Below are positions 1-32,116 of a DNA stretch of 64,000 bases, piece by piece; positions within the stretch are counted from its first letter, which is position 1, and every line of letters begins with the position of its first letter. Source of the stretch: Naegleria gruberi (taxonomy: Eukaryota); NCBI GenBank assembly GCA_000004985.1, contig GG738906.1. One strand, written 5' to 3'. Both the position numbers and the translations under genes were made by a program. The notes below the pieces were generated by a model. That model was not told the origin of the DNA. It did not search any database and saw only the letters and a program-made list of their open reading frames with translations.

Positions 1-259
1 CAAACCCAAACCCAAACCCAAACCCAAAGCCAAACCCAAACCCAAACCCAAACCCAAACCCAAACCCAAACCCAAACCCAAACCCAAACCCAACCCAAAC
101 CCAAACCCAAACCCAAACCCAAACCCAAACCCAAACCCAAACCCAAACCCAAACCCAAACCCAAACCCAAACCCAAACCCAAACCCAAACCCAAACCCAA
201 ACCCAAACCCAAACCCAAACCCAAACCCAAACCCAAACCCAACCCAAACCCAAACCCAA
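1..259 (+). repeat. Telomeric repeat array (CCCAAA)n, about 40 units; the C-rich strand reads 5'->3' at the left end, as expected for a genuine left chromosome terminus. Two variant units (CCCAAAGCC near 27; CCCAACCCAAA near 92 and 240).
   Basis: Direct reading: perfect hexamer periodicity from position 1 to about 259. Confidence 0.95.
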
Positions 260-445
260 AACTAAACCCAAACCCCAACCCAAACCAACCAAAACTAAAC
301 CCAAAACTAAACCCAAAACTAAACCCAAAACTAAACCCAAAACTAAACCCAAAACTAAACCCAAAACTAAACCCAAAACTAAACCCAAAACTAAACCCAA
401 AACTAAAAATAGAATTCTTCTAAACCCAACCTTCAAACCCTAGCC
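260..445 (+). repeat. Telomere-associated variant array: about 10 tandem copies of the 12-mer CCCAAAACTAAA (283-408), flanked by degenerate telomere-like remnants (CCCAACC, CCCTAGCCCAAAA).
   Basis: Direct reading of 12-nt periodicity at 283-408; it grades from the pure hexamer into the variant and then unique AT-rich DNA. Confidence 0.9.
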
Positions 446-2626: not shown

Positions 2627-3617
2627 GGTGATACTTCAAGAGAATGGATGGAAAACTGAAAGGTACAGAAACAACTCCATTTTCACTGAAATTGATATCA
2701 TGATATGTAGACACTCTAATTAGCATATAATATCAATTTCATAAATATTGGTTCAGTAGATGTCGAGTTGTCAACTCTATCATTTTACTATAGAACTTTG
2801 ACATAAAATCAAAGATTATGCTCCAGCTCACTTATTTTATGTGCAATTAGTCTAGAACTGATAACACACATTCTATACACCATGTATATACATCTATACA
2901 AGTTTAGAAACAATTCATGATACTTTAATTCAGTCAATCAGTAAATGTTCAATGTCAAGAGTTATTATATCCAAGTGTACGCTCTATCTCAGCGAAAGTA
3001 CATCCAACCATCATGTAACTTTACCAGATACATTCAATCACACTGATATACATCTGGAATCAATTTCAATGTTTTAGAATTGAATTCAGTATGATAATAA
3101 TAACAATCTGTCAAATTGTCACATTTCAACATATAGAATATACTCCATATCATTCATTTTACAAAATGCCATACAAGTATCAAATATGAATACACTCCTC
3201 TTGATAAGGAGAACAATCTGATAAAGTTTCACATTGATGGCTCAGTATCTTCAAGTCAACTAAGGAACATATAAGGAAATTAATTAGGAAGAATCTTAAT
3301 TTCAAAATTAAATTTTACCATCATATCAAAATCATTGAATAATGAATTATTGATACAAGAATCATATGTTCAATTGTTATATTCATGTCAATAATCAGTG
3401 AAGGTACCATTTCATCAACCTTAGTGTTCACATCTCAATACAGTAAATGTGACTTAAACTTGAAATACAACCTATTTAGATGATATAATGATGATTCTAC
3501 ATAGTAACATGCATGTGAAATTGAATGTTGACACTTTTCATATTGTTATATTTATAGAGATGGTATCCAACAGTCAGTTCACAATATTAAATATTGAAAC
3601 TCATTCTGTATGGTATA
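2627..3617 (+). repeat. Subtelomeric repeat family A, copy 1 (at least 970 bp, truncated by gaps on both sides).
   Basis: 2648-3617 aligns colinearly with 4129-5095 at roughly 80-85 percent identity (e.g. gaaacaactccattttcactgaaattgatatcatgatatgtagacactctaattagcatat at 2648 versus 4129; ...cttagtgttcacatctcaata... near both ends). Confidence 0.85.
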
Positions 3618-3906
3618 NNNNNNNNNNNNNNNNNNNNNNNNNNNNNNNNNNNNNNNNNNNNNNNNNNCCGATTATTGAATATTGATTATTGAATTGGTGA
3701 ATAATCACTCTTGATAATGTTACTTATTCATATTGCATGCAAATCAACCTGATTCAATCTACAAAGGTTGGTAGTTGCACCACTTCGTGGCGAAACTATC
3801 CATCCACGATGAATCAACATATGATTCACTTCCATTCAACTCAATTTGACCGTTATAATCAATAAATCAATGAAATGTTTCTTTATTAGCAATACCTGTT
3901 CAATCT

Positions 3907-4130
3907 AACGAGTAGATTCACGTCCCAAACATTTGGCTTCTCAAAGTCCATATTTCAAAAGTTGATACTGACCTGACCTTTAAATATCTATCAATATAAG
4001 AAATGAAACCATCATATTTACATCATTAATAGATGATAAGAAATATAATCAATGATATGAATCTTCACTAAGTAATCTCTTAAATAACCCAAATAAATCA
4101 ACTCTGAATCCTAACCAAACCCCAAAACCA
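3907..4130 (+). repeat. Subtelomeric repeat family B, copy 1 (about 220 bp), ending in a telomere-like tract CTAACCAAACCCCAAAACC.
   Basis: Aligns with 8107-8320 at about 85 percent identity (aacgagtagattc.cgtcc.aaa.atttg.cttctcaaagtccatatttcaaaagttgatac.gacctgacctttaaatatctatcaa.ataagaaat.aaacc...). Confidence 0.85.
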
Positions 4131-5095
4131 GAAACAACTCCAATTTCACTGAAATTGATATCATGATATGTAGACACTCTAATTAGCATATGGTATCAAT
4201 TTCATGAATATTGGTGCAGTAGATATCGACATGTCAACTCTATCAATTTATTGACATGATATCATAGATTATACTCCAACTCATTCATTTTACATATAAT
4301 CAGCCTAGAGTTGATACCACATAGTCTGTACATCTATTAAATACATCTAGTGTAGTTTGGAAACAGTTCAAACTACTTTTATAAAATTAATCAGTAAATG
4401 TTCAATGTCAACAGTATATATATCCTAGTGAACACTCTATCTCAATGAAAGTACATTCAATCATCCTGTAACTTTACCAGATATGTTAAATTACACTATT
4501 ACACATCTGGTATCAATTTCATAGTGTTAGAATTGAATTCAATATGATAATAATAAAAATTTTTCAAAAAGTCAACTTTCAGTACAAAGATTACACTCCA
4601 TCTCAGTCAATTTACAAAATATCATACAAGTACCAAATATTAATACACTTCCCTTAATAAAGAGAACAATCTGAGAAAGTTGCATATTCATGGCTCAATA
4701 TCTTCAAGTCAACTAAGGAACGTATAAGGTAATCAATAGGGAAGAATCTTATTTTCAAAATTAAATTTTACTATGATACTATATTCACTGAATAATGAAA
4801 TACTTATACAAGAATCACATGTTCAATTGTTATATTCATGTCAGTAATCAGTGAAGGTGACACTTCTTCAACCTTAGTGTACACATCTCAATATGCATAC
4901 TGTCAATTCCACTGAAACTTGAAATATTACCTATCTAGATGATATAATGATGACTCTCCATAGTAACATGTATGTGAAAACAAATATTGACACTTTTCTT
5001 CTTGTTATACTTATAGAGATGGTATCCAACAGAGTCAGATCACAATGTCAAATATTAAAACTAGTTCTATATGATATATATGATGTATAGAAGTG
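4127..5095 (+). repeat. Subtelomeric repeat family A, copy 2, immediately abutting repeat B copy 1.
   Basis: See copy 1; colinear similarity from 4129 to about 5095. Confidence 0.85.
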
Positions 5096-5565
5096 TATCT
5101 GATGATGTCAATTCAGTATGATATACTTTAGTCACAATTACAGGACTTTGTCACTATAGTTTACATTCTATACCAGTCATTTCAACGAGTTATTGATCAG
5201 TTTTACAACCATTATGTTTCTCACACACTCTAGTACATTTTATATTTCAAGAGTGATTTCTGTGAAAGTTATTATCCAAATACCATATATAGTAATATCA
5301 ATAGTCGTTATATACTCAATTCAAGAGTTCTTCTTTTTTTCATATAGATTATTGAATATAGAACACGTCTAGCCTGTTTTCAGACAATAAAAGTCCAGAT
5401 CCCAAATATGGCAAAATGAATTCTTGGCGAGAGGGCAAGTTTTTCTGACAATTACTAAACTTTATTGATTATCTCAATAAATATAGAATATTACACCTTC
5501 GTGTTTTTACCACATGTAGATCAGACTATTATACATCACATTGATAAGTTATAAGATCTGAGCAT

Positions 5566-5943
5566 GTGCGGATCCCAAACCAGAGAGATAATGACAGGTA
5601 CCAAACCCACCTATTGGAAAGTGGATCATCCTTTAGTGATTTTAATAATGGAATTTTCACACCAGATGAATCAGAAGATTTGGAATTATTGGAAATTATC
5701 ATCAAATATTGTTATGGAATTTCATTCGACAATGAAAAAATTTCTGGATTGTTAGACATGGCAATGAAACATGAAATTAAATATTTAGTCGATTATTATT
5801 GTAAGATTAATTTCACGCTCTCCATTCAAAATTACTTTTCCATTGTATCAACATGTGAACAGTATTTGGTTTTCCTGTATTTGAAGGATTTTTCAAAGAA
5901 ATTATTAGATTTGGAGTTCCAACAAGAAGCAACTCTTTACTGA
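5566..5943 (+). CDS. Possible BTB/POZ-like C-terminal fragment ORF (125 aa) adjacent to subtelomeric repeats; may be a gene fragment or pseudogene.
   Basis: ORF-track translation ...LELLEIIIKYCYGISFDNEKISGLLDMAMKHEIKYLVDYYCKINF... resembles the second half of a BTB fold. No N-terminal half was found upstream, where only repeats lie. Confidence 0.2.
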   Translation: MRIPNQRDNDRYQTHLLESGSSFSDFNNGIFTPDESEDLELLEIIIKYCYGISFDNEKISGLLDMAMKHEIKYLVDYYCKINFTLSIQNYFSIVSTCEQYLVFLYLKDFSKKLLDLEFQQEATLY

Positions 5944-6529
5944 TTTGAGTGTTCTTTCTAATTTACCTGAAAAAGTTTGTAATTAAGGTTGGCTTTATGT
6001 AAAGTGGAATGAAATTACAATTTATTACGTTACAAATTTCACTTCAACACTTTTCGATCATCCACAATTTTCTGATTTTCAAATTGTTTTTACAAAATTA
6101 CAACAAAATCTTCATGTTTACAAAGTAAACTCTGAATTCTTTCAAACTCTCTTCTCCTCCAACAATTTCTCTGTGGTCAACTGATACTTGATGATTTATT
6201 TGAAGAAACTGCAGTTTACAAAATTGTAAAAAGCTTTTATACAGGTAGTTTGGAATATTCTCTAGATGATGAAGCCTTCTCACTCTTGATTTTCTCACAA
6301 ATACATGATTCAAGGTTCTCTATCTTCACATTTAAAACATGAAATTCAAATATTTCATCTGATAATTGTTTTAAACTTTTTGGACAATAACATTCTGAAG
6401 AATCATGGCTCTCCACAGTGGTGGACTTTCCTCCGAAAACATCTCTTGTTCTGCTGATAACTTTTTTGATAACTATTACCAACACGTCTATTTGCCAAAT
6501 TTTCAGTTCATGACCAAACATTGATAGAA

Positions 6530-7948
6530 ATGGAATACGAACAATTTGTAAAAAATAAATCAATCTTAATACTCACAGGTTGTCTCCAAAAATTATTTGA
6601 TGAATTTGATGATGGTGATGGTGACAAATTTGAAAAGTTTACAAAAAAAATGACATCACAACCTATCACCGCACCTCTTGATCAACTTCCCGATGAATTG
6701 TTACTTTGTATTGTTACCTTCTCCACCAACAATCCTATTGACATCATTAAATTCTCCCACATTAACAAACGAATGGAGAGAGTATTAAATTCATATCCGA
6801 ACATCTTCCCCCAATTAATTACCTATGATCCTTTGGATCCACTTGACAGAAGTACCTCAAAGCTGATGAATGGATATTTATTTGGTAAATTTTGGGAAAA
6901 TCCACTGAAAAATGGTTTTGCAGTTTTGAAGGAGTTTACTAAGAGAGTGTTTGGACCCAGATCTAAAACATTAAGTAAAAAGAGTACAACTGGGATTAGG
7001 CAACCAGAAAAGTATCTGGGAGTGATATCTGAAATGAAACAGCAGGTAGATTCAGAGCAGAAGCTTGTTGATTGTTTGAAATGGTCAAGAAGAGACCCCA
7101 TTGGTATAATTAAGGCCATTGAATCTCGGGGACGAGCTGTTGAAAGAGCTAACACCTCAAGAATAACACATTTATCGTGTATATTATTCAGTGTAATTGT
7201 ACAGTTTACAATTGGAAAGTTAGCAAGTGTTCCCTCAAATGAAAGATCACTTGAAATGGGTTTATGGTGGCTCCCATATATATTTTGGCCATTAGAAATT
7301 ATACCTATTGTAACAAGTTTGGCGTGTATTGGAGCATCATGTACCAGTGTTGTTCGTGCTTTAAGAATGTTAATTATCAATCCTCAAAAACAGTGGAATG
7401 CTAACTTATATGATGGTATTGTTGTACTTCCATTATTTTATATTGCAACCATCACTGTATTGAGACTTTCAATCATATCGATAAGGACTCTGGTTTATGG
7501 ATCAATTGGCTTGGAGCTATCCTATTTTGAATCAGTGGTGAGTATAGCACTTACTAACAGATACTCGCAATATTTTGGCCTTTCAATGCTGGGATTGGCC
7601 TCTTTTCACAATCTATCTAGTTTGACAGGTACCTATAAACTGTCTGATCCTATCACTGCTTCATTCCTTAGTCTTTCTCTATTCAAATATAGTGGGAGTT
7701 TACTGAGCTTTATTCCACTTTCTCTAATTTCATGTATCATATCTGTTAAGGAGGTTATTTCCAATATCAAATCATCAGACAAGTTGGTATACTCGATACC
7801 TATGGGATTGGGATTGAGCCTGGGCCTACTAAGTTTCGGCCATTTCTCTTACTTGACATTTGCTCCAGCAACCTCTATATTTATGACCCTGTTTATTTCA
7901 ACATTGAAAAGAGAGAAAAAGGAAGCAATTTTGCTAAAGTGTTATTAA
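6530..7948 (+). CDS. F-box-like N-terminus plus polytopic membrane C-terminal domain; hypothetical protein. First ATG at 6530; the track ORF begins at a TTG at 6521.
   Basis: LDQLPDELLLCIVTFSTNNPIDIIKFSHINKRMERVL fits the F-box consensus (LPxEIL...I...L). The C-terminal 250 aa contain multiple hydrophobic helices. GC content and codon choice (ctg, ggc, gcc, ccc) are visibly higher than in neighbouring genes. Confidence 0.6.
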   Translation: MEYEQFVKNKSILILTGCLQKLFDEFDDGDGDKFEKFTKKMTSQPITAPLDQLPDELLLCIVTFSTNNPIDIIKFSHINKRMERVLNSYPNIFPQLITYDPLDPLDRSTSKLMNGYLFGKFWENPLKNGFAVLKEFTKRVFGPRSKTLSKKSTTGIRQPEKYLGVISEMKQQVDSEQKLVDCLKWSRRDPIGIIKAIESRGRAVERANTSRITHLSCILFSVIVQFTIGKLASVPSNERSLEMGLWWLPYIFWPLEIIPIVTSLACIGASCTSVVRALRMLIINPQKQWNANLYDGIVVLPLFYIATITVLRLSIISIRTLVYGSIGLELSYFESVVSIALTNRYSQYFGLSMLGLASFHNLSSLTGTYKLSDPITASFLSLSLFKYSGSLLSFIPLSLISCIISVKEVISNIKSSDKLVYSIPMGLGLSLGLLSFGHFSYLTFAPATSIFMTLFISTLKREKKEAILLKCY

Positions 7949-8106
7949 AATTTAAATAACATGCATCACGATTACAATTATATCTGTGGCTAATCTTGTA
8001 AATAAATGGTAAAAATATTTTACTGCCCTAGTAGAGACAAGTGGACAATTTTCTTTACATTAATCCATCAGTTCCACAGAGAAATAACTCTATAATGATG
8101 ATATCA

Positions 8107-8320
8107 ACGAGTAGATTCTCGTCCGAAAAATTTGACTTCTCAAAGTCCATATTTCAAAAGTTGATACGACCTGACCTTTAAATATCTATCAAAATAAGAA
8201 ATTAAACCTTCAAATTTACATCATTAATAGATCATAAAAATGCAATCAATGATAATCAATCTTCACAAAGTAATACCTTAAATAACCCAAAAAAGTCAAC
8301 TCGAATTCCAAACCAAACCT
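8107..8320 (+). repeat. Subtelomeric repeat family B, copy 2, ending in the telomere-like CCAAACCAAACC.
   Basis: Similarity to 3907-4130. Confidence 0.85.
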
Positions 8321-9664: not shown

Positions 9665-10203
9665 CTTGAATTATTATTTGTTTTTTTTTGTGTTTGTGAA
9701 TTATGTCACAAGTGATGGTTAAATAATAGTTGTGATGACAGGTTAAATGATTTGTTCAAGTACATCATTCACCCATCAATCCTCATCACTTGACTTCAAT
9801 TTATAATATATAAACTGATAGAGCAAAGTTTCATTCTCAGAGTGGCCTCTGTAAATTTGTTAGTAAATACCTTAATTCCATTCTTGTAGGTATCTTGTAG
9901 GAATTCCAGTTAGCCCTTCAAATAATTTCTCCTCAATCAAACTCAATAAATGGAATAAACACAGCAATCAATACGCAACAACATAATGACCCATTTAGTT
10001 AATAGGCCTAGTTGAAATAGGATGGATATTATCTACAACACTGAAAATAATCTTCTACAACACAATAAATATCTGGCATGAGCTTCACACTAAGGAAAAA
10101 GTCAAAGCAATAATAATGCGAACCAAAAGACCGCCAAAAAAATATCCAACAAAAAATAGAAAACAAATAAAAAAAAGCCTCTTGAAGTAAATGCACTTGT
10201 TTG

Positions 10204-11748
10204 ATGAGGATGTGCTCTTCGGAAAGGATATTAGGACATTATGAAAAAGTGATAGTAGCAAACAGTAATAGTAATTCGAAAAAATCACAAAATACTGATT
10301 GTATGGAGAGTGATGAATCGGAACCGTCACAATCAACACAATCCAGCTTTCAAATTGATGAATATATTTGTCCTGATTGTGGAAAAGGATTTATCAATTC
10401 AGAGAATAATACAATTCAAGAATTTCTACATAGTAATATGATAGCTTGTGATATTTGTAATAGATATTATCATTTATATTGTTGCTCTGAAATTTATAAT
10501 GAAAAACAAACAGGAAACTTTTGTGTAATGGTGGAAAATATATTTTTAAATTCTTTAAATAATGTAAATAACAATGTAAATAATAATTTAGACTCGGAAT
10601 TGAAAAATATTGAAAACAAACTCAAATTAATTCCATTTTTTATTTGTAATCATTGTACAGAAACAAGACAATTAAATTCTATAACTAAATGTTTAAATTC
10701 AAGTTTAAATGAAAAAATTATATATTACCAAGATGATATACAAGATCCTTTCCTATTTTATGAAAGGTATGAAATTAATGAATGTAATGATGATTCTTAT
10801 TACATAATATGTAAAGTAAATAACGAAAATAATTTAAACAAATTTTCATATTCAAATTATTTAGCAACTAGGGAAGATTCACGTTTTTTACCTGTATCAA
10901 AAGTAACACTTCAAACAATTATTGAATATTCAATGGATTTATTAGAAGTTTCAATTGAAAATACATTTAATAGATTTAATTTATCTGAAAATCAATTTTT
11001 AAATAGACAATTTATTTTTAAAAATAATTATAATAATATTGGAATTAATTTAATTAAAAATACAATTGAAAATTCTAATATTAGACCTGAAATTGAAGTT
11101 TTTACATTACTTAAAATTAATAATACCAAAAATCAGTCTGAATGTATTGGTTACTTTACATGCTCATTCAATTTAACTTGTAATCAATCAAAGAAGAGAG
11201 AAATAGCAACATGTAATTCTATATTAAGACAATTATTCATAGCTGAAAAGTTTAGAAAGAAGGGACATGCACAGAAAATGATTAACTTTTTTTTCAATTT
11301 GTCAAATTTATTACAAAATATTTCACATTCCGAAAATTATAGATTTTTTTCAAAAAGTACTTGTGTAGAATATCCTAATTATTCAATGTGTTGCCTACTT
11401 TCAAAATTAAATAATATTTCTAAAATAACTATTCAATTTGATTGGGATGACATTTTGCAAATTAAAGCAAAAGCTAACCAAAAAAAGAGGAAAATAGAAA
11501 CAATTAATTCAGAATTAAATAATAGTTCAATTCCATCCAATAATATAGAAAAAAGAAAGTTCCAAATTCAAAATTTAATCAAAGATAGATTAAATAATTT
11601 ACATATCGAATATGAATCAAAAAAGCTAATGGTATTCATCTTTAGAGTAACAAATTCAAATTGGAGAGCTGAAGTTTTCATTCCATTAGGTATATTAGAT
11701 TTTGATATTATTGATGACAAGGAAATGAAAATTGAATTTGAATGGTAA
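10204..11748 (+). CDS. Asn-rich protein with an N-terminal C2H2/PHD-like zinc finger and a C-terminal GNAT-like acetyltransferase motif; possibly an ESCO/Eco1-type acetyltransferase (tentative).
   Basis: CPDCGKGF...(x16)...H zinc-finger-like spacing; RQLFIAEKFRKKGHAQKMINFF resembles the RIWV...RRKGIA acetyl-CoA-binding motif of Eco1/ESCO. First ATG at 10204. Confidence 0.45.
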   Translation: MRMCSSERILGHYEKVIVANSNSNSKKSQNTDCMESDESEPSQSTQSSFQIDEYICPDCGKGFINSENNTIQEFLHSNMIACDICNRYYHLYCCSEIYNEKQTGNFCVMVENIFLNSLNNVNNNVNNNLDSELKNIENKLKLIPFFICNHCTETRQLNSITKCLNSSLNEKIIYYQDDIQDPFLFYERYEINECNDDSYYIICKVNNENNLNKFSYSNYLATREDSRFLPVSKVTLQTIIEYSMDLLEVSIENTFNRFNLSENQFLNRQFIFKNNYNNIGINLIKNTIENSNIRPEIEVFTLLKINNTKNQSECIGYFTCSFNLTCNQSKKREIATCNSILRQLFIAEKFRKKGHAQKMINFFFNLSNLLQNISHSENYRFFSKSTCVEYPNYSMCCLLSKLNNISKITIQFDWDDILQIKAKANQKKRKIETINSELNNSSIPSNNIEKRKFQIQNLIKDRLNNLHIEYESKKLMVFIFRVTNSNWRAEVFIPLGILDFDIIDDKEMKIEFEW

Positions 11749-14858: not shown

Positions 14859-16080
14859 TTACTTGGATGAAAGACTTTCCTTCAAAATGATTGTCTTTAA
14901 ATTTTCCAATACTTTCCTAATATTATTGGTATCAATAGCACAAGTTACTTCGGTAAAAACATCAGCATCCTTGTTTTCACGGAGTGATTTGAATTTTTGT
15001 TCTATGAATTTGATGGCATCAGGAGCAGAATTCTTCTTACCACTATAATCTTTGAAGCAAGTCTCGGAAATATCAACCTTCTTGATCAATTCATTGAAGG
15101 AATCAACCTTGTTAAGGAAGAGCATCACTGGTTTATCATAAAAAACACTACAATTCACCAATTCTTCGAATAATAACATTGATTCATTCATTCTAATGGT
15201 ACTTGGATCTTCTTCCAATACTTGATTGTACTCAACTAGTGATACAACAAAAATCAAGGCTGTTACATTATCGAAAACGTGAATCCACTTCTTTCTCTGA
15301 TTTCTACAATAATTTTTTTGTTAACATTCATTACGAATATCATCATCATATGGCAGATTCATTAAATTAGTATTATTATTATTATTATTTGTATTATTAT
15401 TATCAAATTATTGTGTTCATAAATTATTATAAATTAATATTAAATACAAAAATAATTTCTTACCTTTGTCCACCTACATCAACTAAACGCATACCCAAAC
15501 CACCAAATTCAAATTTAGTTTCATGAACACCAGTAGTTCTCAATCTACAATGAAGAATATCATCAATAGTTGGTACATATTGACTAGAACCAATACGATC
15601 CAAATCATCTAAAAAGTAATTCAAGTTGTCAATAATTTGATAGGTAGAATGTCTTTGATGATAAGCTTGTTGGATCTTTTCATGTTTCCAAACGTATTGA
15701 ATAGATACCAATTTTGTAGAGTCAAAAGCGAGTGTATCAGCAGAAGATGATCGTTTTAAAATTGTTGCAATATGTTCATACAATGCAGAATCTTCCGTTG
15801 TTGTTGTTGTTGTTGTTGTTGTAGATCCTTGTTGTGTTATTGTTTGTGGAGAAATGAAATTCAATTGTTGTGCAGCATCAATAAGAGCTGCCATACCTAA
15901 AACTAAATTATTTTGAATGGTAATTTTGAAACTCATTAATTCTTCCTTGGAATAACCATTTTGATGAAGAATTTTAACTTGTTTAAATAATGTACTTTTA
16001 CCTGACTCTGAAATACCTAAGAGAAGAAGATTTACAGTATTATCAACAGCAAGTGTATTTTGATGGTGATGGTGAGACAT
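14859..16080 (-). CDS. Heterotrimeric G-protein alpha subunit, 2 exons: 16080-15464 and 15303-14859 (intron 15463-15304, 160 nt, GTAAGA...TAG).
   Basis: LLLLGISESGKSTLFKQVKILH (P-loop), DVGGQR|NQRKKWIHVFDNVTALIFVVSL, FLNKVD and TCAIDT motifs. Splice sites were read directly. The N-terminus (MSHHHHQNT...) is about 20 aa shorter than usual for G-alpha. Confidence 0.8.
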
Positions 16081-16252: not shown

Positions 16253-18583
16253 TTACTGAATATCACAAGAAGAATTAGAATTTGTTTTGTAATTATTCAA
16301 AGAACTGAGTGGAAAAACAAGCTTTGGTGGCTGTTTTCCACTTGATCTAATAGATTTTCTAAAGTCTTCTAATTGAGCATTATCAAATGGTGACCAATCC
16401 AGAATTATTCTCTTCAAACTTGACATGGATAAAATTAATTTCTTAATTGCATAACTAATTTTGTCATTCTTCTGATAGGTTGATTTAATGTTGAGTCTGT
16501 CTGATAGGACAATATTCAATTTTTCCAAATTGTTTACATCATGGCATATCCTTTCTAATACATCAACTAAAATGTCTATAGATTCAATATTAATAGTCAA
16601 CACTTTTAAATTATTCAGCTTTCTAATGAATAGGAAATATTCATCCAATTTTGAGGGTTTCACTTCAAACCTAGGCAAACTAAAACTTGTTATTTTCGAA
16701 AGATTATAATCTGGTATCTGTGAAAGTAATTGTAAACCATCCATGGTAATAGGTCCAACACTACAAACTTCCACTTGAGTTAAATTTGGTGATGGAAGAA
16801 CTTTTTGAAATAATTCACACAAATAATGATCTCCAAGTTGAGCCTCTTTGAGCTTGAATTCCTTTAAAGAGTGTAATGGTATAGAAGATTCTGAAATAAA
16901 TTTGATGAGTGTTTCCGGTTCCGTTTGATACAAATCAGTTATCTCTAAAATTTCTAACAAAGGTGCTTTAAACCTTAAATTTTCCATTAAGAAATATACA
17001 GGATATACTGAACATAACCTAAATTCCTTCAATTTTGTAAAAGTTAATGATTTTGTACTTGTTACTATACTATTATAAAATTCACATCTAGACATTATCA
17101 AAGTGCTCAGTGTTTCTCTCGCACTGGAAAGTGCGTTTAACAAATCATCTATATAGAGATGAGAAGAGCCATCAATAATCAAGCTTTGAAGATTTTCAAA
17201 TTGCTTTCCATGACTATATGAAAAATTGGAATTGGTAATTTTGAAACAAGTATTCGTAAAAACCTTATCTATACCAACTTTTTTATCATCCTTAAATCTA
17301 GAACCAATAAATAATTTTGAATAACACAAATCAATCATTTCAAACGAAGTATCTTTCCAAATGTATAATGTATCTATTGAAATCTTAGAAAACAAACTCA
17401 AAGGAAATGAGGATGACAGCAAAGCTAAGTTCAATCTATCTACAGAGGGAACGAAAAACCTGGAACTTGCCTTACCAATTGGAAGAAAAATATACTGACA
17501 AACTTGCAAGTGATTGAAAAATAATTTAGAATGTGTTAATGTATCTTCAATAATATTAATTGATGGTGCTATAAGAGTAAGCTGTTGAATTTTTGTTGAA
17601 CTCACAGATTTCTCAACCTTTGAATCTATTTTCAGTTCTAAAGCAACTTCAGATATCAACTCTAAAACTTGTAAATCATATAATTCCCCTAAACATGAGA
17701 AAATAATGTAAAGAGTCTCCTTTGGTATTTCACTACTATTAAAATTAGTAAGACATAAGTGAGTGAGTTTTTTCATACTCATAATGGTTTGTAAGGAATC
17801 TTTGTAAAATACATTATTTTGAGATAGGCTTAATATTCTACAATTTGTTAGATGATGTAATGCACCTATAGGATTTCCAACAGATCCAGAAATGTGTAAA
17901 ACATGTAAATTATTAAGAGACTCAATGGAAAAGTATTTTTCCCAATTACTCCATTCAAATGAAATATCTTTTTCACCGAAAAAGTCCAAATAGATACTTC
18001 TCAATCCACATTCATCCACTAATCTATTAATAATATTATTAGATGGATTTTTCATAATTAAATTTGTTAGTTGTTTGAATCTTGTAAGGTTAAGAATAGA
18101 CATGAATACACGCTCTGATAAAATCTCGTTCATTCTACTCATTAAATAATTATTTGAAAATGAAAAACTAATTTTCCTATTATTATTTTGAAAATTTTCA
18201 GATGAGAGTAAACAACTTGATTTTAAACTACTATAGAAATCTCCATCATTTCCAAAAGCATAATAACCTTTACTTTTCATCTCTGAAAATATTCCATTAA
18301 ATATTTCTGAATTATATTTAAAACATGAAGAAAAACCATCCACATAATTACTCACAGAAGGAGCATAGTGAAAATGTGAAAGTAAATACTGAAAAGCCCA
18401 AATTCTAAAACTTCTATTAACACTCATAAAATCAACCAATTCACGATGATCAAGAAAGGATATAATAACAAAAAATAGTTCCGATGGAAGATCAGAAAAG
18501 CTCATCATGATATCATTTTCTTCAGAATTACAAGTAAAATGATGATCTTTTTCTAGATACGAAACTGGAGTGGTATTTTGCAT
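16253..18583 (-). CDS. F-box / leucine-rich-repeat protein (about 777 aa, single exon).
   Basis: N-terminal FSDLPSELFFVIISFLDHRELVDFMSVNRSFRIW fits the F-box consensus. The remainder is rich in L..L.L..N repeats. First ATG at 18583; the track ORF starts at a GTG. Confidence 0.65.
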   Translation of the reverse strand: MQNTTPVSYLEKDHHFTCNSEENDIMMSFSDLPSELFFVIISFLDHRELVDFMSVNRSFRIWAFQYLLSHFHYAPSVSNYVDGFSSCFKYNSEIFNGIFSEMKSKGYYAFGNDGDFYSSLKSSCLLSSENFQNNNRKISFSFSNNYLMSRMNEILSERVFMSILNLTRFKQLTNLIMKNPSNNIINRLVDECGLRSIYLDFFGEKDISFEWSNWEKYFSIESLNNLHVLHISGSVGNPIGALHHLTNCRILSLSQNNVFYKDSLQTIMSMKKLTHLCLTNFNSSEIPKETLYIIFSCLGELYDLQVLELISEVALELKIDSKVEKSVSSTKIQQLTLIAPSINIIEDTLTHSKLFFNHLQVCQYIFLPIGKASSRFFVPSVDRLNLALLSSSFPLSLFSKISIDTLYIWKDTSFEMIDLCYSKLFIGSRFKDDKKVGIDKVFTNTCFKITNSNFSYSHGKQFENLQSLIIDGSSHLYIDDLLNALSSARETLSTLIMSRCEFYNSIVTSTKSLTFTKLKEFRLCSVYPVYFLMENLRFKAPLLEILEITDLYQTEPETLIKFISESSIPLHSLKEFKLKEAQLGDHYLCELFQKVLPSPNLTQVEVCSVGPITMDGLQLLSQIPDYNLSKITSFSLPRFEVKPSKLDEYFLFIRKLNNLKVLTINIESIDILVDVLERICHDVNNLEKLNIVLSDRLNIKSTYQKNDKISYAIKKLILSMSSLKRIILDWSPFDNAQLEDFRKSIRSSGKQPPKLVFPLSSLNNYKTNSNSSCDIQ

Positions 18584-18741
18584 TTTGAAAAACACAATTT
18601 TTTTTAATAATTTAAAAGCCCTCTTTACAATATGAGTTTCAATTTGAAACCATTTCTGGCCTATATTTATTGAGAGATGAACTTTCGGGTAGAATCCCTC
18701 CTCAACACAATACCTGATCGGTTAAAAGCAACAAACAAAAA

Positions 18742-20461
18742 ATGTCTAGCATTGAATTACCAGTCTATGACTGGTTATTATTCAGAAATGATGAGTTTTT
18801 GAATCAGGGCAGTACTGTTGTTTCCACAAAATTATCTCATAATCAAACTTTTATTAGTAGAGGGGTTTGTTTTTCAAATTATCTATAGTTTTAGGTATTA
18901 ATTGCTTCTGTATTTTAAATAGGATCAACTTTATGCAAGATATGAATTTGCAGAATTAAATTATGATGTTGCTATTCCATTCTTTGTAATTTTGATATTG
19001 GCCGAGATTATTTCTCAATTTATTACTAAAAAACAATTGTACAGAATGAATGATAGTTTTTCAAGTTTGGCATGTGGTGTTACCCAACAATTGATTGGCA
19101 AATTACTCACCAATTATTTGTTTCGAACCATTCCTTATGCTTTTTTCTTTCATTTATTTCATGGTGGCAGTGAGAGAGCTCTTGTTTCTTCCTTCACTGA
19201 TATTGGAATGAGTTCTTGGTACTGGTGGATGGTTTTGATATTTTATGATCATCAATACTATTGGTCTCATAGATATGCTCATGAAGTAAGTGTGAATTAT
19301 CTTTTTTTCAAATCATAATTAATATTGTTCACAAAATAGTGGAATATCGGATGGGCAGGTCACAATGTACATCACTCATCGGAGGAATATAATTTAACTT
19401 CAGCCCTCAGACAAGGAGCTTATCAAGATTGTACAACTTTTTTATTTTACATTCCAATGGCAATAGCTGGAATTCATCCTTACTTTTTCTCAATTCACTC
19501 AAATATTAATTTGGTTGGTCAATTTTGGTTTCACACCAGAGCTATTAGAAAACTACCATCTCCATTAGAATGGATTTTGAACACTCCTTCTCATCATCGT
19601 GTACATCATGGTAGAAATGAATATTGTCTAGATAAGAATTATGGTGGTGTTCTCATAATTTTTGATAGAATTTATGGTACTTTTGAACCTGAACAAGAAA
19701 TGGAAACTGAAGACCCAATCAGAAAAGAAAAATCAAATGTTGTTTATGGTCTTACCACTCCACTAACTACATTTGATCCAATTCAAACACAAAATCATTT
19801 GATAGTATCAATCTTGCAAACCTGCATGGAAATATCATCCAAATCTACACATTCAGTGTTTAAAGGAAAATCTCAATTATTCATTTGGTGGAATAGATTA
19901 CAAGTTATTTTCAGAGGACCAGGTTGGAATTGTTTCACTCAAGGTATTTATTGAAATATTTAATTTATTAATACTTTCAAAGGTTGGTATGAATGTCCAA
20001 AAGTTTTAACACCTCCAAGTAAGAATCAAATGTACGATCCTCAAACTAATCCACCATTTGAGAAACATTTGGCAACTATACATTTTGCTATTACATTTGT
20101 ATTGTACTTGTTGCATATGGAGACAAACTTTGACAGTCTAATCAATCAATTATCCCAACTCTTATTCATTTACCTCTCACTTTCTAGTATTTCAAGCATT
20201 TATGAGGACAGTTCTTCAAAGAAACTACATGAACTGATTAGACTCTCTTTCTCAAATTTATTCTTACTCTTTAAATATTATGGTGATAATAATTGGATTG
20301 GTAGAATGTTACCAGGTTCTCAGACCACAATGTTTTTCAACCCAATTCTATTCAACACTAGTCTATCTGTAGGCACTGTACTCTTTTGTATTAACTCTAT
20401 TTCCTTAGTGTATTGGTGTATATTTTCAATCAAAATCTCAATCAAAAACAAACAAGAATAA
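18742..20461 (+). CDS. AGMO: Alkylglycerol monooxygenase-like / fatty-acid-hydroxylase-superfamily membrane enzyme, 4 exons: 18742-18864, 18923-19285, 19340-19943, 19983-20461 (introns of 58, 54 and 39 nt).
   Basis: The spliced product contains WSHRYAHE|WNIGWAGHNVHHSSEEYNLTSALRQ (histidine boxes HRxxHE...HxxHHSSE diagnostic of the AGMO/sterol-desaturase family) and HRVHHGRNEYCLDKNYGGVLIIFDRIYGTF. All junctions have GTAAGT/GT...AG and restore frame. Confidence 0.8.
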
Positions 20462-30715: not shown

Positions 30716-32116
30716 TTAATGAATAGATGGAATTTTAATACTACAGCCAATGAACCATTTGGGAAAGGAAAATACTAAAATCCCAACAATTTTTGGAAAT
30801 GCTAGTAACTGAGGAAACACTTGTCTGTAAAATATTATCATTAATAGAAATGTTAAAAAATTAATTAATTCAAAAGGAGGAAGGAAGAGATTGGATAAGC
30901 TTAAATTCCAATCAGTTACAAAATCAATAAAAATAACACAAAATAGCGCCAGTGTAAACGAATTACGAATCGTTGTAATATTAAATGATCTGAAACATTC
31001 TATCAAGGCAGACCACAAAGACAATCCTGCTGTTAAATACCCTATAAATAATCCAATTGATGTTATTAGTTTCATAACAAAATGCTTTTCTGATTGGATA
31101 GGAATTGAAAACATATTTCTTGTGTGACTGAAAATGGGTATTCCAGTATAGATCCAAATAATCCACCAATAAATAATATAAATACAAAGAGCAACAGCTT
31201 CTATTATGAAAGGAATAGATCCAATAAATAATTGTTTAGGTTTCATAAAATAATTATAAGAAAATGGAACAGTTTGTATGTGTAATTGACAGGGAAAATC
31301 TGATATTGACTGAGATAAATTATTTTCTGGTAAAATATCTATTACTATATTCCTCTTAGGTAAAACAAATTCAAGCTCAATAATTGCATCGATTATTTGG
31401 CTTTCTTTTTGTAAATTGTTTCCCAATAACTGTATCAATACTCTCTTCATTATGCTTGTTAGTGTAACATGGCTAGATGTTAGATGGGAATCAATATGTT
31501 CAGGCAATTTAAGTGAACTAAAGTTGGATTCTAGTCTCTTGGATGGCTTTATCCCTTCCAAGGAATATATTTGAACACATCGACCATCAGATTGCAAACC
31601 ATGAACTAGGAGAATTCCTTCCTTGGGTAATTTACGATTAAAATCTACCTTAATTTTCTCAAATATACAATTTAATTTCCGTAAATATTTTGGAACAGAT
31701 GAACTATTTGTACAATAACCCTTTCGAATGTAAATAAGAAACTCAAAGTTCTCTTGTGATGAATTGAAAAACATCAAGTAATTAAATCTGATTGATAATC
31801 TCAAACAAATTTTAAAATCCAACCTATTTTCGAAAAATATTTTCCTAGTTGATGATTTTAAGAGAAATTCCTTTTCTCTAATTGTACAGTAATTAGATCC
31901 AATATATTCATTACTGTGTACTTGTTTGATGAATTTTTCTTGTATTAATTTTATCAAACAATGATCACGATTGAATCGTTGATTATCCTCATATTTATAA
32001 TTATTGAAAATAGCCTGATATAAACAAATAAATGCTTGAATAATCCTATATATATCGGATACATTTAGAAAGGAACAAATTTCAAACCACTCATCTTCCG
32101 AAAGTCTTTTAATCAT
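30716..32116 (-). CDS. F-box-like N-terminus plus polytopic membrane C-terminal half; hypothetical (466 aa). Same architecture as the 6530-7948 protein.
   Basis: LSEDEWFEICSFLNVSDIYRIIQAF (F-box-like); the C-terminal 170 aa contain several hydrophobic helices (IPFIIEAVALCIYIIYWWIIWIY...). Confidence 0.5.
   Translation of the reverse strand: MIKRLSEDEWFEICSFLNVSDIYRIIQAFICLYQAIFNNYKYEDNQRFNRDHCLIKLIQEKFIKQVHSNEYIGSNYCTIREKEFLLKSSTRKIFFENRLDFKICLRLSIRFNYLMFFNSSQENFEFLIYIRKGYCTNSSSVPKYLRKLNCIFEKIKVDFNRKLPKEGILLVHGLQSDGRCVQIYSLEGIKPSKRLESNFSSLKLPEHIDSHLTSSHVTLTSIMKRVLIQLLGNNLQKESQIIDAIIELEFVLPKRNIVIDILPENNLSQSISDFPCQLHIQTVPFSYNYFMKPKQLFIGSIPFIIEAVALCIYIIYWWIIWIYTGIPIFSHTRNMFSIPIQSEKHFVMKLITSIGLFIGYLTAGLSLWSALIECFRSFNITTIRNSFTLALFCVIFIDFVTDWNLSLSNLFLPPFELINFLTFLLMIIFYRQVFPQLLAFPKIVGILVFSFPKWFIGCSIKIPSIH

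What the first reader, a model, noticed from the sequence alone, without database searches (positions are those of the whole stretch)
6530..7948. F-box-like + polytopic-membrane protein family, with one GC-shifted member in the subtelomere
Two genes (6530-7948 plus strand, 30716-32116 minus strand) share an unusual architecture: an N-terminal F-box-like motif followed by a multi-helix hydrophobic C-terminal half. F-box proteins are normally soluble SCF adaptors. The subtelomeric copy has conspicuously higher GC and non-AT-biased codons (ctg, ggc, gcc, ccc) compared with essentially every other gene here except highly expressed ones. It sits between repeat copies. This suggests a rapidly evolving or recently relocated gene family, possibly a membrane-anchored ubiquitin-ligase adaptor.
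Basis: partly seen in the sequence, partly recalled or inferred. Interest (0 to 1): 0.5.

Follow-up and report, generated by a model that had tools for sequence, protein, structure and literature searches.

The report
Naegleria membrane-embedded F-box protein gene
The gene near the chromosome end of the amoeba Naegleria gruberi does encode an unusual protein, a ubiquitin-ligase "F-box" handle joined to a six-to-seven-helix membrane domain, and it belongs to a small Naegleria-only family.

Summary
The window is a Naegleria gruberi chromosome end. Gene A (6650-7948, +) is the annotated hypothetical protein NAEGRDRAFT_73574.

What holds for gene A:
- It has an N-terminal F-box. This is weak in A itself (Pfam 14.9 bits, below the cut-off). 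It is above the cut-off in three homologues that align along their full length. The family profile's best PDB hit is the Skp2 F-box.
- It has a C-terminal domain with 6-7 conserved hydrophobic helices.
- It belongs to a very small Naegleria-restricted family: one N. gruberi paralogue, one N. lovaniensis protein and a few metagenome sequences.

What does not hold:
- Gene B (30716-32116, -) is not a relative (BLASTP E=0.79; hhalign probability 0.2%).
- B has no detectable F-box. It is an orphan with a hydrophobic tail, so the two-gene "family" is not real.

The composition remark holds in milder form. A has the second-highest GC3 (0.32, z=2) and the most atypical synonymous codon usage of 32 ORFs. 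CTG, ACC, CCC and GGC are enriched; GCC is not. The flanking DNA has ordinary GC. A does lie between copies of a subtelomeric repeat.

Most likely function: a membrane-resident SCF substrate receptor. This is inferred, not shown. The architecture is an unusual variant of a known kind, of modest interest.

The parts
6650..7948 (+). Gene A coding sequence (432 aa plus stop), equal to N. gruberi NAEGRDRAFT_73574. An in-frame upstream ATG at 6530 would add 40 non-conserved residues.
   Evidence: ORF list. 100% identity to P0001, which starts at the Met encoded at 6650. Colinear full-length alignment with paralogue P0004, so no intron is needed.
6677..6793 (+). F-box-like motif, residues 10-48 of the 432-aa protein.
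   Evidence: Pfam F-box-like E=0.024 and F-box E=0.033, in register but below the cut-offs. The same columns score above the cut-off in P0004, P0005 and P0008. The family profile's best PDB hits are the Skp2 F-box (1fs1_A E=0.0036; 1ldk_E E=0.005). P, E, L, I, F, P, S and H are invariant in the F-box block.
6794..7165 (+). Poorly conserved, mostly helical soluble linker of about 120 residues. It ends in a K/R-rich stretch just before the first membrane helix.
   Evidence: Alignment A1. AF2 secondary structure, at low confidence.
7166..7906 (+). Polytopic membrane domain, residues about 173-419. It has six strong hydrophobic segments and one weak one that are conserved across the family.
   Evidence: Kyte-Doolittle scan. 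Family-averaged hydropathy. No Pfam family. No significant PDB match by sequence or fold.
7259..7279 (+). Family signature GLWWLPY, between membrane helices 1 and 2. W206, W207, P209 and Y210 are invariant.
   Evidence: Alignments A2 and A4. Sequence read.
7847..7867 (+). Family signature SYLTFAP, between the last two helices. S400, T403 and P406 are invariant.
   Evidence: Alignments A2 and A4. Sequence read.
30716..32116 (-). Gene B: an orphan 466-aa ORF with about 5 C-terminal hydrophobic segments. It is unrelated to gene A and has no supported F-box.
4129..5078 (.). Subtelomeric repeat piece a', 82.5% identical to 2666-3617. It forms the left bracket of the block that holds gene A.
8106..8319 (.). 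Subtelomeric repeat piece c', 89% identical to 3907-4121. It forms the right bracket, 158 bp after gene A's stop codon.
1..401 (.). Telomeric hexamer array (CCCAAA)n, marking the chromosome end. Gene A starts about 6.1 kb from it, plus the unknown true size of two assembly gaps.
   Evidence: Sequence read. TRF: period 6, 67.7 copies. Gaps at 984-2605 and 3618-3667.

Best explanation
Gene A encodes a Naegleria-specific integral membrane F-box protein.

Shown:
- An intact 432-aa ORF.
- An N-terminal motif that is an F-box at the family level.
- A C-terminal domain of 6-7 conserved hydrophobic helices carrying two invariant signatures, GLWWxPY and S..T..P.
- Homologues only in Naegleria-type sequences.
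- Gene B is not a homologue.

Inferred:
- The F-box and the K/R-rich linker face the cytosol. The K/R-rich N-flank, the second loop and the C-tail suggest an N-in/C-in six-helix topology.
- There the F-box binds Skp1 and recruits Cul1-Rbx1. The protein would then act as a membrane-resident SCF substrate receptor.
- Its membrane domain, or the roughly 120-residue linker, would select membrane-embedded or membrane-proximal targets for ubiquitination.

The subtelomeric position, the repeat bracket, the deviant codon usage and the frameshifted closest relative mark this as a fast-evolving, probably dispensable family member.
For: - Identity: the only hit in the 5.8-billion-protein search is NAEGRDRAFT_73574, named 'F-box domain-containing protein' by UniRef.
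- Family: phmmer against 1.84 billion representatives gives 7 hits. These include paralogue P0004 (E=4.9e-22, full length), P0005 (1.1e-12) and N. lovaniensis P0008 (5.5e-5).
- F-box: Pfam F-box-like scores 28.2, 31.9 and 32.3 bits in these homologues, against a cut-off of 24.3. The target scores 14.9 bits in the same register. The family profile's top PDB hits are all the Skp2 F-box, the best at E=0.0036.
- Membrane domain: hydropathy of the protein and of the family.
- A canonical F-box/LRR gene in the same window (16253-18595) shows that the organism has ordinary F-box proteins.
Against: - Gene A's own F-box is below both Pfam cut-offs. The usual Trp of the third helix is Met in A and in its closest relative.
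- No Skp1 binding, localisation or expression data exist.
- AF2 models are poor (pLDDT 39 and 52), so neither the three-helix F-box fold nor the membrane fold is verified.
- The membrane domain has no known relatives, so substrate selection by it is speculation.
- The closest relative (L003) carries two frameshifts, which hints that the subfamily can be lost.
Confidence: 0.55

Rival explanations
1. The membrane domain is the functional unit, for example a transporter, channel or scaffold. The F-box would then act as a regulatory or Skp1-binding module outside a classical SCF ligase. From my own knowledge, yeast Rcy1 and the RAVE complex use Skp1 without cullin. Alternatively the F-box could control the protein's own turnover.
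For: The strictly invariant residues lie in the membrane domain (GLWWxPY, S..T..P), not in the linker where a substrate-binding module would be expected. One metagenome relative (P0007) keeps the membrane domain but lacks the F-box.
Against: No significant similarity to any transporter or channel family: Pfam gives none, bestrophin scores E=0.56 and aquaporin-3 E=0.6. The F-box is kept above the Pfam threshold in three divergent members. P0007 may be a gene-calling or assembly chimera.
Confidence: 0.2
2. Gene A is a decaying, functionless subtelomeric copy. Its F-box-like motif would be vestigial and the ORF on its way to becoming a pseudogene.
For: - The F-box score is below threshold, unlike the paralogues.
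- Its codon usage is the most atypical of 32 ORFs.
- It lies within a subtelomeric repeat bracket.
- The closest relative needs two frameshifts.
Against: - The reading frame of 432-475 codons is uninterrupted in about 30% GC DNA.
- All family-invariant residues are retained.
- It aligns colinearly along its full length with the paralogue.
- Decay under AT-biased mutation would lower GC3, not raise it.
Confidence: 0.1
3. One reading: genes A and B are two members of one F-box plus membrane family.
For: Only a superficial likeness. Both proteins are about 470 aa with a hydrophobic C-terminal part. B's N-terminus can be written in F-box register (L-S-E-D-E-W-F-E-I-C-S-F-L).
Against: - BLASTP E=0.79.
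- Family profile against B: probability 0.2%.
- F-box sub-profile against B's N-terminus: probability 1%.
- No Pfam hit for B at E<=10.
- B lacks both family signatures.
- B has no homologue anywhere.
Confidence: 0.03
4. Gene A's deviant codon usage reflects recent arrival of this copy, either from another genomic compartment or from another Naegleria-like genome, into the subtelomeric repeat. This is not exclusive of the best explanation.
For: - The codon bias is specific to the gene. The flanks have ordinary GC of 0.29-0.30.
- The bias differs from the bias seen in the highly expressed actin gene.
- The block 5079-8105 sits between repeat pieces a' and c', which are only about 290 bp apart in the neighbouring unit.
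Against: - A paralogue exists in the same genome and relatives exist in the genus, so the family is native.
- No donor-like sequence was found. The closest relative is only 46-49% identical.
- The neighbouring unit contains a 50-N gap, so the '290 bp' is uncertain.
- The sample is only 32 ORFs from one window.
Confidence: 0.12

Closest known systems
Canonical F-box proteins (Skp2-type SCF substrate receptors; Pfam PF00646 / PF12937)
   Same: An N-terminal motif of about 40 residues, LPxE[LI]L..I..F...[DH][IL]...S.[VI].[KR]... It scores above the Pfam cut-off in three family members, and the family profile's best PDB matches are the Skp2 F-box.
   Different: The C-terminal part is not a soluble LRR, WD40 or Kelch recognition domain. 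It is a polytopic membrane domain of 6-7 helices with no known relatives. The target's own motif is below the Pfam cut-offs.
Arabidopsis CFB (cytokinin-induced F-box protein, AT3G44326)
   Same: An F-box protein with a predicted transmembrane domain. It binds the Skp1 homologue ASK1 through the F-box, and its enrichment in the microsomal fraction depends on the transmembrane domain (PMC5853388). It therefore shows that a membrane-anchored SCF adaptor is feasible.
   Different: CFB has a single C-terminal transmembrane domain and is largely nuclear and cytosolic. The Naegleria family has 6-7 conserved helices with invariant motifs. No plant sequence appeared among the 7 hits of the exhaustive phmmer search, so the two are not detectably homologous.
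N. gruberi NAEGRDRAFT_69101 (P0004) and N. lovaniensis C9374_003567 (P0008)
   Same: True homologues with the same F-box plus membrane architecture and the same signatures.
   Different: Only 21-29% identical to gene A. Their F-boxes pass the Pfam cut-off. P0008 lies about 48 kb from the end of a 1.08-Mb contig.

Membership tests
F-box (Pfam PF00646 / PF12937) | The sequence matches the curated profile above the gathering score. | tested here: inconclusive
   Target: 14.9 and 14.6 bits against cut-offs of 24.3 and 20.5, E=0.024 and 0.033, in the correct register. No hit with the full-length protein at E<=10. Homologues aligned in the same columns pass PF12937 at 28.2, 31.9 and 32.3 bits.
F-box (Pfam PF00646 / PF12937) | The conserved core residues are present: the L-P start, E-[LI]-L, I..F/L, and a hydrophobic third helix [VI]-x-[KR]-[RK]-[WFM]. 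| tested here: met
   The F-box block alignment A3 has invariant P5, E7, L9, I12, F15, P20, S27 and H28. The alignment to the Skp2 F-box (1fs1_A) is colinear, at E=0.0036. The Trp is replaced by Met in gene A and by Phe in P0004.
F-box (Pfam PF00646 / PF12937) | A three-helix fold that docks on Skp1. | tested here: inconclusive
   AF2 places three short helices at residues 15-25, 29-38 and 40-48, but pLDDT there is only 46-55. Foldseek against the PDB found nothing significant.
F-box (Pfam PF00646 / PF12937) | Physical binding to Skp1 and assembly into an SCF complex. | not testable with these tools
   This needs two-hybrid or pull-down experiments, or a complex prediction with N. gruberi Skp1.
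Naegleria F-box plus membrane family (gene A, P0004, P0005, P0008, L003) | Gene A shows significant full-length similarity to the other members and carries the GLWWxPY and S..T..P signatures. | tested here: met
   phmmer E=4.9e-22, 1.1e-12 and 5.5e-5. Invariant columns W206, W207, P209, Y210, S400, T403 and P406.
Naegleria F-box plus membrane family (gene A, P0004, P0005, P0008, L003) | Gene B (30716-32116) belongs to it. | tested here: not met
   BLASTP E=0.79. hhalign probability 0.2%. No tblastn hit of any family member at gene B's locus.
F-box, as applied to gene B | A profile match at B's N-terminus. | tested here: not met
   No Pfam hit at E<=10 for the N-terminal 100 residues or for the full protein. 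hhalign against the family F-box block gives probability 1%. No PDB sequence hit.
Known membrane protein families (MIP/aquaporin, bestrophin, any Pfam family) | Significant sequence or fold similarity of the membrane domain. | tested here: not met
   No Pfam family in any member. Best PDB profile hits are bestrophin at E=0.56 and aquaporin-3 at E=0.6. The best Foldseek E-value is 0.96, on a low-confidence model.

The most novel reading that the evidence does not exclude
The family may be a true polytopic, membrane-embedded SCF substrate receptor that recognises client proteins inside the lipid bilayer through its conserved GLWWxPY and SYLTFAP helices. I know of no characterised F-box protein that recognises substrates this way. 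Today that job is assigned to membrane RING ligases such as Hrd1 and Doa10 (my own knowledge). It would have evolved independently in Heterolobosea.
Probability: 0.15. Interest if true: 0.65.

Novelty: new variant of a known kind. Interest (0 to 1): 0.33.

Why it matters
F-box proteins are almost always soluble adaptors. A conserved family in which the recognition domain is replaced by a six-to-seven-helix membrane domain would give cullin-RING ligases a second route to membrane-protein turnover. It would also offer a compact case for studying how substrates might be recognised within the membrane.

As it stands, the gene is an annotated but uncharacterised hypothetical protein, and the family is tiny and confined to Naegleria. 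The practical gains are modest:
- a corrected annotation: there is a family, but gene B is not in it;
- a concrete, testable hypothesis: Skp1 binding and membrane localisation;
- one example of a subtelomeric gene with gene-specific deviant codon usage.

Tried and rejected
**Structure**
- Single-sequence AF2 gave pLDDT 39, and the 5-sequence alignment gave pLDDT 52. Both are too poor to interpret.
- Foldseek against the PDB found nothing significant on that model. The afdb50 library was not available.

**More family members**
- A profile search of the 5.8-billion-protein collection with alignment A2 added none.
- The metagenome contig scan with A2 found none.

**Gene B**
- The homologue search did not return even B itself, so the collection holds no protein matching this ORF.
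- There was no exact-match gene on record, no PDB hit, no metagenome relative and no paralogue in the window.

**N. gruberi genomic context**
- I could not fetch context for P0001 or P0004, because these proteins are not on record in the encoding-contig index. The paralogue's chromosomal position therefore remains unknown.

**Ideas set aside**
- A regional (isochore or biased gene conversion) cause of gene A's GC3. The flanking non-coding GC is 0.29-0.30, as elsewhere, and a neighbouring gene at 10201-11748 has the lowest GC3 (0.149).
- A BTB-like reading of the upstream ORF 5566-5943. Pfam gives nothing.
- Aquaporin-like (SYLTFAP over GAHLNPA, E=0.6) and bestrophin-like (E=0.56) readings of the membrane domain. 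Neither is significant, and the aquaporin match is not colinear.

**Literature**
- Searches for polytopic F-box proteins and for Naegleria F-box or telomere work found only Arabidopsis CFB as a relevant precedent.

Full report
**Where the window comes from.** The window starts with about 68 copies of CCCAAA (TRF). Two assembly gaps follow (984-2605 and 3618-3667), then compact DNA of about 30% GC with few introns. This DNA encodes actin, flagellar proteins (CFAP61, ODAD1), Rft1, histidyl-tRNA synthetase and others. The target protein is 100% identical to NAEGRDRAFT_73574 of Naegleria gruberi, which lies on a 286-kb scaffold. The window is therefore a chromosome or scaffold end of N. gruberi, and "subtelomeric" is correct.

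**Gene A is really there.** An uninterrupted frame runs from 6521/6530 to 7948. The database protein starts at the ATG at 6650 and has 432 aa. The 40 residues upstream of that are not conserved in homologues. Alignment with the paralogue is colinear from residue 8 to 414, so no intron is needed.

**The F-box.**
- The full-length protein gives no Pfam hit.
- The N-terminal 100 residues give F-box-like at E=0.024 (14.9 bits, cut-off 24.3) and F-box at E=0.033. Both start at profile position 1 on LDQLPDELL. Taken alone this is sub-threshold.
- The exhaustive phmmer search of 1.84 billion representatives found a small family. It includes P0004, which is N. gruberi NAEGRDRAFT_69101 (E=4.9e-22, full length). 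It also includes the metagenome protein P0005 (1.1e-12) and P0008, which is N. lovaniensis C9374_003567 (5.5e-5).
- In these three the same N-terminal columns pass Pfam F-box-like at 28.2, 31.9 and 32.3 bits.
- A profile of the family searched against all PDB sequences returns the Skp2 F-box as its top seven hits, the best being 1fs1_A at E=0.0036.
- The F-box block has eight invariant positions.
- I therefore take the F-box as established for the family and as a diverged copy in gene A (Trp to Met in helix 3). UniRef already names the protein "F-box domain-containing protein".

**The membrane half.**
- A Kyte-Doolittle scan finds hydrophobic 19-mers from residue 176 to 419.
- Hydropathy averaged over the family keeps six strong segments and one weak one. 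The strong segments are at about 173-193, 212-236, 256-278, 343-366, 380-397 and 401-419. The weak one is at about 305-320.
- Two short signatures are invariant: GLWWxPY after helix 1, and S..T..P (SYLTFAP in gene A) before the last helix.
- K/R-rich stretches precede helix 1, follow helix 2 and form the C-tail. This suggests an N-in/C-in six-helix topology with the F-box in the cytosol. That is inference only.
- The domain matches no Pfam family in any member.
- The best PDB profile hits are bestrophin at E=0.56 and aquaporin-3 at E=0.6. Neither is significant, and the aquaporin match is not colinear.
- AF2 models were poor (pLDDT 39 and 52), and Foldseek on the better one gave nothing.

**Gene B is not a relative.**
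- The ORF at 30716-32116 (-) is real. A 466-codon frame in 28% GC DNA does not arise by chance. It has about 5 hydrophobic segments in its last 170 residues.
- BLASTP against gene A gives E=0.79, and the family profile against B gives probability 0.2%.
- No family member hits the locus by tblastn.
- Its N-terminus has no Pfam hit even at E<=10 and scores 1% against the family's F-box block.
- It has no homologue in the 5.8-billion-protein collection, in the PDB, in JGI metagenome contigs or in the window.
- It is an orphan membrane protein.

**Composition.**
- Gene A's GC3 is 0.307 (from 6530) or 0.319 (from 6650). The other 31 ORFs have a mean of 0.225 and an SD of 0.047, so z=2.0 and rank 2, behind actin at 0.347.
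- The named codons are enriched, except GCC: CTG is 9 of 60 Leu against 3.2% (p=1e-4). ACC is 11 of 26 Thr against 13.8% (p=4e-4). CCC is 5 of 22 Pro against 6% (p=0.009). GGC is 4 of 22 Gly against 5% (p=0.02). GCC is 2 of 17 Ala against 14.7% (not significant).
- This differs from actin's preference for TTG, GGT, GCT, CCA and ACT.
- In a leave-one-out likelihood of synonymous codon choice, gene A is the most atypical of the 32 ORFs (-1.19 per codon; the others range from -0.74 to -1.05).
- Flanking non-coding DNA has the same GC as elsewhere (0.29-0.30), and a neighbouring gene at 10201-11748 has the lowest GC3 (0.149). The effect is therefore specific to the gene, not regional. I cannot explain it.
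- Homologues give only weak context. The N. lovaniensis homologue is near the top of its local GC3 range, while P0005 is unremarkable.

**Repeat context.**
- 2666-3617 matches 4129-5078 at 82.5% identity, and 3907-4121 matches 8106-8319 at 89%.
- In the distal unit the two pieces are about 290 bp apart, though a 50-N gap intervenes.
- In the proximal unit they are separated by 3.0 kb. That stretch holds 1.45 kb without recognisable genes plus gene A.
- This fits either insertion of the gene A block into a repeat unit or deletion from the distal unit. The data cannot decide.
- An identical partial copy (NAEGRDRAFT_76832, residues 1-176) sits on a separate 4.6-kb contig. It is either a second locus or an allelic or redundant contig.

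**Family evolution.**
- The closest relative is 45-49% identical and lies on a 1.58-kb metagenome contig (L003), next to a tRNA-Lys gene. It can be read only with two frameshifts, one inside the LPD of the F-box and one near residue 150.
- That contig may hold a pseudogene, although assembly error is not excluded.
- Another metagenome protein (P0007) joins an old-yellow-enzyme domain to the membrane half and lacks the F-box. It is possibly a gene-calling chimera.
- With only two annotated Naegleria homologues besides gene A and its partial duplicate, plus a few metagenome sequences among 1.84 billion representatives, the family is tiny, lineage-restricted and divergent.

**Mechanism.** The best-supported reading is a membrane-resident SCF substrate receptor. 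A cytosolic F-box would bind Skp1-Cul1-Rbx1, and the membrane domain or the linker would select targets. The steps shown are the architecture, the family and the family-level F-box identity. The steps inferred are the topology, Skp1 binding and ligase function. A canonical F-box/LRR gene in the same window (16253-18595) shows that the organism has ordinary F-box proteins. Arabidopsis CFB shows that a transmembrane-anchored F-box protein can bind Skp1 (PMC5853388). The rival readings are:
- a membrane protein that uses the F-box outside an SCF complex;
- a decaying subtelomeric gene;
- a recent arrival, which would explain the codon usage.

**Verdict.** This is an unusual variant of a known kind (an F-box protein with a polytopic membrane domain). 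It is already annotated but uncharacterised, and of modest interest.

Noticed in passing
window 1-410: The telomeric array is (CCCAAA)n, 67.7 copies by TRF. Its inner part (about 262-408) switches to a 12-mer variant, CCCAAAACTAAA. I found no paper describing Naegleria telomere repeats in the held library.
   Followed up: partly
window 2666-5078 and 8106-8319: A subtelomeric direct repeat of about 1.46 kb period: 2666-3617 matches 4129-5078 (82.5%), and a 214-bp tail (3907-4121) recurs at 8106-8319 (89%). It contains no ORF longer than about 65 aa. Two N gaps (984-2605, 3618-3667) interrupt the region.
   Followed up: partly
window 6650-7948: Gene A's synonymous codon usage is the most atypical of the 32 ORFs in the window. 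It differs from the bias seen in the highly expressed actin gene, while the flanking DNA has ordinary GC. The cause is unexplained.
   Followed up: partly
L003 1-1580 (ENA ERZ27245887 k141_867091): The closest relative of gene A (45-49% aa identity) is readable only with two frameshifts, so it may be a pseudogene in an uncultured Naegleria-like organism. A tRNA-Lys(TTT) gene lies just upstream at 134-206.
   Followed up: partly
P0007 (JGI metagenome protein, 648 aa): An NADH:flavin oxidoreductase (old yellow enzyme) domain is fused in frame to the C-terminal ~350 residues of the P0005-type protein. It lacks the F-box. It is either a real fusion or deletion variant, or a gene-calling chimera.
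   Followed up: no
P0002 (NAEGRDRAFT_76832, 4664-bp N. gruberi contig): A partial protein 100% identical to residues 1-176 of gene A lies on a separate small contig. It is either a second (subtelomeric?) copy or a redundant or allelic contig.
   Followed up: no
window 30716-32116 (-): A 466-aa ORF (gene B) has no counterpart in the 5.8-billion-protein collection, not even itself. The collection holds no protein matching this ORF, so it may be unannotated in N. gruberi. It is an orphan with a hydrophobic C-terminal third.
   Followed up: partly
window 16253-18595 (-): A canonical F-box plus leucine-rich-repeat protein (Pfam F-box-like E=3.3e-6). It is the only ORF in the window whose F-box passes the Pfam cut-off.
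   Followed up: no
window 15460-16080 (-) and 19457-19954 (+): These ORFs cover only part of a G-protein alpha subunit (profile positions 13-194 of 333) and of a fatty-acid hydroxylase (65-132 of 132). Both genes probably have introns, and their other exons lie in the adjacent 'intergenic' DNA.
   Followed up: no
window 7640-7900 (gene A residues ~340-415): The last three helices align weakly to aquaporin-3 helices 1-2 and its first NPA loop (SYLTFAP over GAHLNPA), at E=0.6. This is not significant, and the other shared-looking motif (WWxP) is out of order.
   Followed up: yes
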